Shown here: in pieces, positions 44,112 to 44,442 of the stretch
Layout: every line of letters begins with the position of its first letter
Numbering within the stretch: position 1 is the first letter of the stretch
Assembly (NCBI RefSeq): GCF_003018115.1
Contig: NZ_CP027457.1
Reading direction: 5' to 3' (one strand)
DNA from: Escherichia coli
Lineage (GTDB): Bacteria > Pseudomonadota > Gammaproteobacteria > Enterobacterales > Enterobacteriaceae
Length of the DNA stretch: 64,000 nt
The notes under the pieces: generated by a model
What the model was told of the DNA's origin: nothing
What the model saw: the letters and a program-made list of their open reading frames with translations, nothing else
The model's database searches: none
Program-made: the position numbers and the translations under genes

Positions 44112-44442
44112 AACTTGAGTAAGGTTTTAGAATAAACATCAGCTGTATCACCATGCTGATGCAAAGTGAGCATTTCAGGCGTTATGCTTTCTTATTATGT
44201 CCGCAATATCAGGTGTCAAGAATGGAGAGTTCTCGCTCTCCATTCTTGACGCCTGATATCCCGCCTAACTTATTTTGTACTGCCTACATTATGCTCAATA
44301 ATTAATGGGTTAGATCAAGATGGAGAAAATTTTATCTTCGGCGTGGATATTTCTTATGCTCTCTACCATGCTCTCTGTAGATGCCAGCGCGAGCGAATGA
44401 ATGGCATTTTCATGTATTAAACCCTTTGGCCGGGACAAGCAA

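What the first reader, a model, noticed from the sequence alone, without database searches (positions are those of the whole stretch)
44199..44258. About 24-bp near-perfect palindrome between ymgC and pdeG
atatcaggtgtcaagaatggagag and its reverse complement (one mismatch) are separated by about 6 nt, which would form a very stable hairpin of roughly 54 nt. It is longer than a typical terminator or REP element. It could be a structured small-RNA or terminator element, a binding site for a dimeric regulator, or a relic of a small mobile element; a short signal-peptide-like ORF (MEKILSSAWIFLML...) lies just downstream.
Basis: seen in the sequence. Interest (0 to 1): 0.4.

Follow-up and report, generated by a model that had tools for sequence, protein, structure and literature searches.

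The report
Perfected RNA hairpin downstream of ymgC
The palindrome is real, but it is a single-copy, E. coli-specific stem-loop after the last gene of the ycgZ-ymgABC operon, most likely an RNA 3'-end hairpin, and one mutation cluster made its older imperfect form near-perfect in the K-12 lineage.

Summary
Two 24-nt arms (44206-44229 and 44236-44259) flank a 6-nt loop with one mismatch, which is a U·G wobble on the + strand. The RNA fold is -44.5 kcal/mol (z = -10) and it is the best inverted repeat in the window.

It is not REP, ERIC, IS or MITE. There is one locus per E. coli genome, no relatives in 100,044 species genomes or in viral contigs, no Rfam hit, and no annotation in NC_000913.3. 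It is not an intrinsic terminator, because CCCGCC rather than a U-tract follows the stem.

Fourteen natural alleles show an older form: a 7-bp lower stem, an 8x4 internal loop and a 14-bp upper stem. About 34% of genomes and the outgroup allele carry it. The near-perfect K-12 form is derived. Its new left-arm segment GCGTCAA is the exact reverse complement of the pre-existing right-arm TTGACGC, which is the signature of a quasipalindrome template switch.

Stem substitutions keep pairing on the + strand only (upper helix 100% paired against 89.5% on the - strand). Two pairs show A-U/G·U/G-C-type series, and the loops are hypervariable.

Best reading (inferred): a protective or processing stem-loop in the ycgZ-ymgA-ariR-ymgC 3' UTR, of the Rho-dependent type, with C>G downstream. 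The K-12 helix is long enough for RNase III. This is an ordinary kind of element of modest interest.

The parts
44206..44229 (+). Left arm of the hairpin. It comprises the lower stem 44206-44212 (ATATCAG), the middle segment 44213-44216 (GTGT, the derived 'corrected' segment) and the upper stem 44217-44229 (CAAGAATGGAGAG).
   Evidence: In the older allele class, GTGT is replaced by an unpaired 8-nt segment (AGGGCAAA, GGGGCAAA, GGAGCCAA or GGTTTAAA).
44230..44235 (+). Apical loop TTCTCG. U44230·G44235 can close a UCUC tetraloop.
   Evidence: The loop is hypervariable between alleles (TTCTCG, TTTTCG, CGCTCG, CTATTG). The closing pair is C-G in 6 alleles and U-G in 5.
44236..44259 (+). Right arm of the hairpin. 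It is nearly unchanged between the old and new allele classes and contains the -35-like hexamer TTGACG at 44244-44249.
   Evidence: The hexamer was named as the predicted -35 of a 'constitutive' ycgG promoter in genomic SELEX (PMC3946193).
44138..44162 (+). First, small 3'-UTR hairpin after ymgC (CATCAGC-11 nt-GCTGATG, about -10 kcal/mol).
   Evidence: It is conserved in all alleles, including the divergent L010 lineage that lacks the big hairpin. An A>G variant gives U·G on the + strand.
43863..44111 (+). ymgC, the last gene of the ycgZ-ymgA-ariR-ymgC operon. Its stop codon lies 94 nt before the hairpin.
   Evidence: Northern evidence for a single polycistronic ycgZ-ymgABC mRNA is cited in PMC3509220.
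44260..44299 (+). C-rich, G-poor tract directly after the stem (C12, G4 in 40 nt). There is no U-run adjacent to the stem. This is a candidate rut or Rho-loading region.
   Evidence: A C>G bias downstream of U-less protective stem-loops is described for Rho-dependent transcripts (PMC6061677).
44269..44274 (+). TATTTT, the -10 predicted by the SELEX authors, 19 nt after TTGACG.
   Evidence: It is not conserved: B2-type alleles have TTGTTT and the 2CC allele has TTGCTT at this place. The consensus scan does not call it.
44320..44400 (+). Conserved 26-codon hydrophobic ORF (MEKILSSAWIFLMLSTMLSVDASASE), 60 nt after the hairpin and in frame with pdeG.
   Evidence: It is unannotated and has no family or literature record.
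44443..45966 (+). pdeG (ycgG), a CSS-EAL c-di-GMP phosphodiesterase gene. Its start lies 183 nt after the hairpin.

Best explanation
The palindrome encodes a long stem-loop in + strand RNA, the same sense as ymgC and pdeG. It lies in the 3' untranslated region of the ycgZ-ymgA-ariR-ymgC operon, 94 nt after the ymgC stop codon.

Its older form, still present in about one third of E. coli genomes, is bipartite: a 7-bp lower stem, an 8x4-nt internal loop, and a 14-bp upper stem closing a tetraloop (about -28 kcal/mol).

In the lineage that includes K-12, a replication template switch (quasipalindrome 'correction') replaced 11 nt of the left arm with a 7-nt reverse-complement copy of the right arm. 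Together with a few point changes, this produced the 24-25-bp near-perfect helix seen in the window.

Most likely function (inferred, not shown): a protective or processing 3' stem-loop for the operon mRNA. Transcription would run past it and be ended by Rho in the C-rich, untranslated stretch that follows. 3'-5' exonucleases would then trim back to the base of the hairpin, which would set the steady-state 3' end and insulate pdeG.

The K-12 version is a continuous helix of at least 22 bp, so it should also be a substrate for RNase III. In this lineage that could turn a stabiliser into a cleavage site.

Shown: the structure, single-copy status, allele history, strand-specific conservation of pairing, and absence of a U-tract. 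Inferred: that it is transcribed to this point, the Rho, exonuclease and RNase III steps, and the direction of the effect on mRNA stability.
For: The structure is real and far beyond chance.

Strand-specific conservation:
- Across 11 distinct alleles the 13-bp upper helix is paired in 100% of cells on the + strand and 89.5% on the - strand.
- Every change in that helix is a transition giving G·U on the + strand. There are no transversions, whereas the apical and internal loops vary at most positions.
- Two pairs show full compensatory series through a + strand G·U intermediate: A-U (2 alleles), G·U (5) and G-C (4) at pair 35-42, and C-G, U·G and U-A at pair 16-57.
- My hand count of about 11 events gives 6 that create G·U, 3 that convert G·U to Watson-Crick, and 2 that disrupt pairing.
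- RNAalifold gives -26.6 kcal/mol with a 14-bp upper helix on the + strand, against -21.4 with a truncated helix on the - strand.

Position and context:
- It lies downstream of the last gene of an operon that, by Northern blot, is one polycistronic mRNA ending before ycgG (PMC3509220).
- There is no U-tract after the stem, and C12/G4 in the next 40 nt. This matches the U-less stable stem-loops with C>G downstream that mark trimmed 3' ends of Rho-dependent E. coli transcripts (PMC6061677).
- RNase III accommodates about 22 bp of dsRNA (PMC6212723), and the K-12 helix is 25 bp.

Derived status of the perfect form:
- On a tree built from the flanks with the hairpin masked, and rooted on the equidistant 2CC allele, the perfect alleles form one clade. 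The 8x4-loop form is in the outgroup and the sister clade.
- The new left segment GCGTCAA is the exact reverse complement of the unchanged right-arm TTGACGC. It replaces GGGGCAAACAG, which amounts to 3 changes in 11 nt against a flank divergence of about 3%.
- Template switching of this kind is documented in E. coli and for RNA stems (PMC5941160, PMC8794818, PMC7202029).

Not coding: a 4-nt indel between allele classes rules out the ORFs that overlap the hairpin.
Against: - There is no direct transcript evidence. The only 3'-end data set I could read has no 3' end at 12170xx-12171xx (PMC7815308 supplements), although it had no 3' ends anywhere in this operon either.
- The covariation rests on about 11 substitution events in closely related alleles. 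The shuffle controls of the pair counts are not significant, and a C>T bias on the non-template strand could mimic part of the G·U excess.
- At 21-25 bp the hairpin is much longer than typical protective stem-loops, and a smaller hairpin (44138-44162) already sits closer to ymgC.
- In one divergent lineage ymgC keeps the small hairpin but not the large one, with the breakpoint at 44173. This would fit the big hairpin belonging to the pdeG side.
- Template switching can perfect and maintain inverted repeats without any selection.
- A perfect helix may be cleaved by RNase III rather than protect the mRNA, so the direction of the effect is unknown.
Confidence: 0.45

Rival explanations
1. Functionless quasipalindrome. 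An inverted repeat in AT-rich, horizontally acquired spacer DNA is kept, and in the K-12 lineage perfected, purely by replication template switching and mutation bias. It has no role as RNA or as a protein site.
For: The perfect form is recent and arose by a change with the exact template-switch signature. Perfect inverted repeats are reported to be over-conserved in proteobacterial non-coding DNA through this mechanism alone (PMC5941160). The locus is E. coli-restricted and AT-rich. No transcript end, Rfam family or annotation is attached to it. The shuffle controls for covariation are not significant.
Against: The imperfect form has persisted in all deep allele classes with both stems intact, while the loops and the flanking spacer diverged. 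The 13-bp upper helix has no transversion, and the loops vary at most positions. The pairing-preserving changes are one-sided in favour of + strand G·U. Template switching, which works on DNA symmetry, does not predict that.
Confidence: 0.25
2. DNA-level control element of the promoter for pdeG or the small ORF. The right arm supplies the -35 hexamer (TTGACG) and the symmetric arms form a site for a dimeric or multimeric regulator, or for H-NS, that controls initiation just downstream at about 44281.
For: Genomic SELEX found an RpoD-holoenzyme site in the ymgC-ycgG spacer, flagged as H-NS-bound, and its authors proposed TTGACG-19-TATTTT (PMC3946193). TTGACG lies at 44244-44249 inside the right arm, and TGTCAA (TTGACA on the - strand) mirrors it in the left arm. 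The right arm, including TTGACG, is nearly invariant. Template switching that expands inverted repeats near promoters has been described in yeast (PMC13100816).
Against: The proposed -10 is weak, needs a 19-nt spacer and is not conserved in the B2-type or 2CC alleles. The consensus scan finds no + strand promoter here. The hexamers were picked by eye from a low-resolution SELEX peak, and no mapped transcription start site was found. Two 24-bp arms are far larger than a transcription-factor half-site. The left arm, which would be half of any symmetric site, was interrupted by an 8-nt unpaired segment for most of the element's history. G·U-type changes break DNA symmetry yet are the ones tolerated.
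Confidence: 0.15
3. 5'-leader hairpin of a transcript covering the small ORF and pdeG. A promoter just upstream (a -10-like TATTAT/TAATAT at 44193-44198) would start transcription at about 44205, so the mRNA begins with the stem-loop. That would stabilise it against 5'-end-dependent decay, or make it an RNase III target.
For: A -10-like hexamer (TATTAT in K-12, TAATAT in most other alleles) is conserved 7 nt before the first base of the stem. Pairing is conserved on the + strand. In the L010 lineage the large hairpin is lost together with the pdeG side rather than kept with ymgC.
Against: No acceptable -35 is present and the scan calls no promoter. B2-type strains that have deleted the pdeG 5' end (44401-45072) still keep the hairpin intact. 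There is no transcription start site evidence.
Confidence: 0.1
4. Relic of a small mobile element (MITE, solo terminal inverted repeats or an excision footprint), or a member of a dispersed repeat family such as REP/BIME or ERIC.
For: The arms resemble terminal inverted repeats in length. The locus is strain-variable and AT-rich. IS1 insertions occur nearby in some genomes.
Against: - There is one locus per genome in 4,954 of 5,426 E. coli genomes at blastn word-11 sensitivity. The 'two places' reported are the palindrome matching itself on both strands.
- The core pattern finds only 2 chance hits in 100,044 species genomes and none in 2.9 million viral contigs.
- NC_000913.3 carries no repeat annotation here.
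- There is no flanking target duplication.
- The perfect symmetry is derived from an imperfect ancestor rather than decaying from a perfect one.
Confidence: 0.03

Closest known systems
U-less protective 3' stem-loops of Rho-dependent E. coli transcripts (Dar & Sorek 2018, PMC6061677), with REP-type mRNA stabilisers as the classic case
   Same: A stable stem-loop sits downstream of the last gene of an operon. No U-tract follows the stem. The sequence is C-rich and G-poor immediately downstream. It is on the sense strand of the operon.
   Different: It is single-copy and unrelated in sequence to REP. The stem is 21-25 bp, against roughly 5-12 bp for typical cases. No mapped 3' end or exonuclease dependence is available for this locus. 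A second, smaller hairpin lies between it and ymgC.
RNase III processing hairpins in or after operons (phage T7 R1.1-type intercistronic signals; lambda sib retroregulation of int)
   Same: The older allele has the same architecture: two coaxial stems separated by an asymmetric internal loop, about two helical turns in total, placed after a coding region. The K-12 allele is a continuous helix of at least 22 bp, the size RNase III accommodates (PMC6212723).
   Different: No cleavage data exist for this site. Proximal and distal box preferences were not scored. No phage or antitermination context is present. This resemblance rests on my knowledge of those systems and was not tested here.
Quasipalindrome-associated template-switch mutations (Ripley model; E. 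coli thyA and rpsL hotspots; PMC7202029, PMC5941160) and template-switch creation or repair of RNA stems (PMC8794818)
   Same: A clustered multi-nucleotide change in one arm, where the new sequence is the exact reverse complement of the pre-existing other arm. It converts an imperfect inverted repeat into a perfect one.
   Different: This is a natural, fixed polymorphism that distinguishes major E. coli allele classes, rather than a laboratory reporter. Additional point changes at the apex of the stem are needed to explain the whole difference.
Intrinsic (Rho-independent) terminators, including bidirectional ones
   Same: A stem-loop located between two genes.
   Different: No U-tract follows the stem within 0-2 nt on either strand and no A-tract precedes it. 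The stem is AT-rich and about three times the usual length. The terminator scan does not call it.

Membership tests
REP/BIME, ERIC (IRU), Box C and other dispersed E. coli intergenic repeats | Many related copies per genome | tested here: not met
   blastn (word 11) of the 86-nt region finds only this locus in 4,954 genomes, with a median of 2 places because the palindrome matches itself on both strands. There is no other copy in the window at up to 3 mismatches. NC_000913.3 has no repeat_region feature here.
MITE / IS remnant | Terminal inverted repeats with a flanking target-site duplication, and related copies or a parent IS elsewhere | tested here: not met
   The flanks (tccgca / cccgcc) show no direct duplication. 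There are no related copies in E. coli, 100,044 species genomes or viral contigs. The symmetry increased rather than decayed over time.
Intrinsic terminator | G+C-rich stem-loop followed within 0-2 nt by a U-rich tract | tested here: not met
   The stem is followed by CCCGCCTAAC on the + strand and TGCGGACATA on the - strand. The scan reports no terminator at this site.
Any curated RNA family (Rfam 15) | Covariance-model match at or near the gathering score | tested here: not met
   Permissive cmscan of 43000-45500 gave only three chance-level hits (E 1.8-8.3, 17.5-20.7 bits, all below half of each family's gathering score), none on the hairpin.
Protective 3' stem-loop of a Rho-dependent transcript | Stable stem-loop downstream of the last ORF on the sense strand, without a U-tract | tested here: met
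   It lies 94 nt after the ymgC stop. The fold is -44.5 kcal/mol in K-12 and about -28 in the older alleles. No U-tract follows.
Protective 3' stem-loop of a Rho-dependent transcript | C>G bias (rut-like sequence) immediately downstream | tested here: met
   C12 against G4 in 44260-44299. The criterion comes from PMC6061677.
Protective 3' stem-loop of a Rho-dependent transcript | Steady-state RNA 3' end at the base of the stem; read-through with bicyclomycin or in pnp/rnb mutants | not testable with these tools
   The only readable 3'-end tables (PMC7815308) list no end here, and none anywhere in this operon. Other supplements are not held.
RNase III substrate | About 22 bp or more of (quasi-)continuous dsRNA | tested here: met
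   The K-12 allele forms 25 continuous pairs. The older alleles form 14 + 7 bp around an internal loop. The size criterion comes from PMC6212723.
RNase III substrate | rnc-dependent cleavage in vivo or in vitro | not testable with these tools
   ymgC/ycgG is not mentioned in the main text of PMC6212723, and its supplement is not held.
Quasipalindrome template-switch product | The ancestral state is an imperfect inverted repeat and the perfect state is derived | tested here: met
   The outgroup allele and the sister clade carry the 8x4-loop form. The perfect alleles form one clade on a tree built with the hairpin masked.
Quasipalindrome template-switch product | The clustered change in one arm equals the reverse complement of the pre-existing other arm | tested here: met
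   GGGGCAAACAG changed to GCGTCAA, which is the reverse complement of the invariant right-arm TTGACGC. The derived left arm over its outer 20 nt is the exact reverse complement of the ancestral right arm.
Operator for a dimeric transcription factor, or a sigma-70 promoter element | Match to a known factor motif, or a conserved -35/-10 pair with a mapped start site | tested here: inconclusive
   TTGACG is conserved and an RpoD SELEX peak is reported in the spacer. However, the proposed -10 is not conserved, the scan calls no + strand promoter, no start site data were found, and no motif library was available.

The most novel reading that the evidence does not exclude
The template-switch 'perfection' of the hairpin is a lineage-specific regulatory switch. 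In the K-12-type allele class (about 65% of genomes) the continuous 25-bp helix would make the ycgZ-ymgA-ariR-ymgC mRNA, or the pdeG leader, an RNase III target, in the manner of lambda sib retroregulation. The older 8x4-loop form carried by the rest would act as a protective 3' stem-loop. A single replication slip would then have rewired expression of biofilm/Rcs connector genes and a c-di-GMP phosphodiesterase between major E. coli lineages.
Probability: 0.1. Interest if true: 0.55.

Novelty: new member of a known kind. Interest (0 to 1): 0.3.

Why it matters
If the reading is right, this adds an unannotated cis-acting RNA element to a well-studied E. coli regulatory locus, the blue-light, cold and biofilm module BluR/BluF - YcgZ-YmgA-AriR - Rcs, next to the c-di-GMP phosphodiesterase gene pdeG. 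It would also be a clean natural example of a template-switch mutation turning an imperfect RNA stem into a perfect one, now fixed in about two thirds of sequenced E. coli. Because both forms co-exist in the species, an allele swap could test directly whether such 'corrections' have regulatory consequences. None of the underlying mechanisms is new, so the value is as an instance and a test case.

Tried and rejected
- **Dispersed repeat or mobile element:** rejected. It is a single locus in E. coli. The core pattern GAATGGAGA-N8-12-TCCATTCTTGA gave only 2 unrelated hits in species genomes (a Curtissbacteria MAG and a Bacteroidales MAG) and none in viral contigs. That strict pattern did not return any Escherichia record either, so it cannot see diverged relatives.
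- **Rfam:** only chance-level hits.
- **Canonical terminator or promoter:** the scan calls neither at the hairpin.
- **Orthologues in other species:** YmgC homologues are confined to E. coli at 77% identity or more. The most divergent contexts either carry the same hairpin or lose homology at 44173. That junction is not seen in complete E. coli genomes.
- **Transcript ends and start sites in the literature:** Term-seq tables list nothing here. The Cappable-seq and SMRT-Cappable-seq supplements have nothing at these coordinates. The RNase III and Rho 3'-end supplements are not held. Two further papers are not held.
- **Alternative pairing of 44172-44182 with the right arm** (11 nt, 91%): rejected as an attenuator, because the pairing is not kept in the outgroup allele (8/11 by eye) and is hopelessly weaker than the main stem.
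- **ORFs overlapping the hairpin** (44153-44305 on +, 44175-44243 on -): rejected as coding because allele classes differ by a 4-nt indel, and no family matches the 44153-44305 ORF, the only one scanned.
- **Excluded alleles:** L075 is an indel-ridden contig and L093 is a chance match to the anchor.
- **MlrA-box or RcsB-box resemblance near or in the repeat:** checked by eye only, with no convincing match.

Full report
**Observation.** The inverted repeat exists as described.
- The arms are at 44206-44229 and 44236-44259, 24 nt each and 23/24 complementary, with 6 nt between them.
- The single mismatch (T44214 opposite G44251) is a U·G wobble in + strand RNA and a C·A mismatch on the other strand.
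- The arm sequence with up to 3 mismatches occurs nowhere else in the window and in none of 100 shuffles.
- The RNA fold is -44.5 kcal/mol (z = -10.3) on the + strand and -45.3 on the - strand. As single-stranded DNA it is -25.8 kcal/mol.
- It is the best close inverted repeat in the 64-kb window.
- The window is E. coli K-12 (window position + 1,172,885 = NC_000913.3 position), so the hairpin is at 1217091-1217144. It lies 94 nt after the ymgC stop codon and 183 nt before the pdeG start codon. The reference annotation has nothing there.

**What it is not.**
- It is not a dispersed repeat or mobile-element relic. A word-11 blastn of the 86-nt region against 5,426 complete E. coli genomes finds only this locus, present in 4,954 genomes; the median of two places is the palindrome matching itself on both strands.
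- A core pattern search found two unrelated chance hits in 100,044 species genomes and none in viral contigs.
- Rfam gives nothing.
- It is not an intrinsic terminator. The stem is followed by CCCGCC on the + strand and TGCGGA on the - strand, and the scan does not call it.
- The ORFs that overlap it cannot be coding, because allele classes differ by a 4-nt indel.
- YmgC itself is confined to E. coli. Tschowri et al. 2012 likewise report that ymgC, ycgG and ymgF occur only in certain E. coli strains (PMC3509220).

**Allele history.** I collected the locus from representative genomes and from 79 metagenome contigs anchored on a conserved 20-mer downstream. This gave 14 hairpin alleles.
- About 65% of genomes that carry the locus are at least 90% identical to K-12 over the 86-nt hairpin region (the near-perfect class). 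About 34% fall in the 80-90% band, the class of the bipartite alleles, and 18-19 genomes have a third, more distant allele called 2CC.
- The bipartite form has a lower stem ATATCAG/CTGATAT. The left strand then has an unpaired 8-nt segment (AGGGCAAA, GGGGCAAA or GGAGCCAA; GGTTTAAA in 2CC) opposite 4 nt (ACGC or ACGT). A 13-14-bp upper stem closes a tetraloop. Its fold is about -28 kcal/mol.
- The 2CC allele is equidistant (6-9%) from all the others, so I used it as the outgroup.
- A neighbour-joining tree built from the flanks with the hairpin masked places all perfect alleles in one clade, apart from one recombinant. The 8x4-loop form is in the sister clade and in the outgroup. The perfect palindrome is therefore derived.
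- The change that created it replaced GGGGCAAACAG in the left arm with GCGTCAA. That is the exact reverse complement of TTGACGC in the right arm, which did not change.
- This amounts to two substitutions and a 4-nt deletion within 11 nt, all increasing complementarity, against a background divergence of about 3%. It is the signature of a quasipalindrome template-switch mutation, a process documented in E. coli and proposed to create and repair RNA stems (PMC7202029, PMC5941160, PMC8794818).
- A few further point changes at the apex (TTTTCC or TTCTCC to CTCTCC) complete the perfect helix.

**RNA structure or DNA symmetry.**
- On an alignment of 11 distinct alleles, the 13-bp upper helix is paired in 100% of cells when read as + strand RNA, but only 89.5% when read as the - strand.
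- All of its variation consists of transitions that give G·U on the + strand. There are no transversions, while the apical and internal loops vary at most positions.
- Two pairs show complete compensatory series through a + strand G·U intermediate: A-U, G·U and G-C at the apical pair, and C-G (OkiPb01714), U·G (K-12) and U-A (PK12) at the K-12 mismatch position.
- RNAalifold returns a better and longer consensus helix on the + strand (-26.6 kcal/mol against -21.4).
- My hand count gives about 6 events that create G·U, 3 that convert G·U to Watson-Crick, and 2 that disrupt pairing.
- This is suggestive but not conclusive. The events are few, the sequences are closely related, the tool's shuffle controls are not significant, and a strand-biased C>T mutation rate could contribute.

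**Likely function.**
- The + strand is the sense strand of the ycgZ-ymgA-ariR-ymgC operon, which Northern analysis showed to be one polycistronic mRNA (PMC3509220). Its 3' end must therefore lie between ymgC and pdeG.
- Dar and Sorek showed that Rho-dependent E. coli transcripts end, at steady state, right after stable stem-loops that lack a U-tract. These are followed by C>G-biased sequence, and they protect the mRNA from PNPase and RNase II (PMC6061677).
- The hairpin fits that description: no U-tract, and C12/G4 in the next 40 nt.
- I therefore favour a protective or processing 3' stem-loop, possibly working together with the small conserved hairpin at 44138-44162.
- The K-12 helix (25 bp) exceeds the roughly 22 bp that RNase III accommodates (PMC6212723). 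The older bipartite form resembles phage-type RNase III processing signals, although that resemblance rests on my own knowledge.
- Whether the element stabilises or destabilises the mRNA, and whether the two allele classes differ, is open.
- I found no transcript-end data for the locus. The readable Term-seq tables list no 3' end here, and none anywhere else in the operon.

**Rivals.**
- It may be functionless DNA symmetry kept and perfected by template switching alone (0.25).
- It may be a DNA-level element of a pdeG promoter (0.15). A genomic SELEX study reports an RpoD-holoenzyme site in this spacer and proposed TTGACG-19-TATTTT (PMC3946193). TTGACG lies inside the right arm and is mirrored by TTGACA on the other strand. 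However, the -10 is weak, is not conserved and is not called by the scan.
- It may be a 5'-terminal hairpin of a small-ORF/pdeG transcript started from the conserved TATTAT/TAATAT at 44193-44198 (0.1).
- A mobile-element origin is essentially excluded (0.03).

**Verdict.** The finding is a real, previously unannotated, single-copy stem-loop of a known general kind. Its interesting feature is a well-resolved evolutionary history. It rates as a new member of a known kind, with modest interest (0.3).

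Noticed in passing
window 44320-44400 (+): The 26-codon hydrophobic ORF (MEKILSSAWIFLMLSTMLSVDASASE) is about as conserved as the ymgC coding region, while the spacer around it is 2-5 times more diverse. It is in the same frame as pdeG, with its TGA stop followed directly by an ATG at 44401. Its start codon is TTG instead of ATG in B2-type alleles. The substitutions are not clearly synonymous-biased. It is unannotated and absent from protein collections, family libraries and papers. It could be a small membrane protein, a leader peptide or a conserved RNA or promoter region.
   Followed up: partly
window 44401-45072; locus L002 (strain 317): In B2-type strains pdeG lacks its 5' end. 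The deletion starts exactly after the stop codon of the small ORF, and the hairpin and small ORF are retained.
   Followed up: partly
window 44138-44162 (+): A second, small hairpin (CATCAGC-11 nt-GCTGATG, about -10 kcal/mol) lies 27 nt after the ymgC stop. It is conserved in every allele, including a divergent lineage that lacks the large hairpin, and one variant gives U·G on the + strand.
   Followed up: partly
locus L010/L011 (GCA_017278115.1) vs window 44173: In one divergent Escherichia lineage, homology to the window ends at 44173, between the two hairpins. ymgC is there followed by unrelated sequence leading to a cytochrome b561 family (PF01292) gene and a GAPDH gene (cybB/gapC-like by my reading). 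This junction is not present in any complete E. coli genome.
   Followed up: partly
locus L014 (GCA_046507465.1), equivalent to window 44269-44277; locus L094 (RM14721): An IS1 with a 9-bp target duplication CTTATTTTG is inserted 10 nt downstream of the hairpin, on the proposed -10. A different IS1 sits inside ymgC in strain RM14721.
   Followed up: yes
window 3043-3097 and 29361-29403: There are two other long close inverted repeats in the window: 25-nt arms at 88% complementarity with a 5-nt loop, and 18-nt arms at 94% with a 7-nt loop.
   Followed up: no
window 44172-44182: ATTTCAGGCGT is a third, partial copy of the outer arm sequence and is complementary to 44249-44259 at 10/11 positions. 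It sits at the homology breakpoint of the L010 lineage. It is probably chance or a remnant of a duplication.
   Followed up: partly
E. coli plasmid records, e.g. NZ_CP082081.1 (150 kb): Twelve to seventeen matches to the ymgC-hairpin region lie on records classed as plasmids.
   Followed up: no
locus L039: This is a recombinant allele. It has the older 8x4-loop hairpin joined to the K-12-type downstream flank, and it groups with the K-12 clade on the flank tree. This shows recombination breakpoints next to the hairpin.
   Followed up: partly
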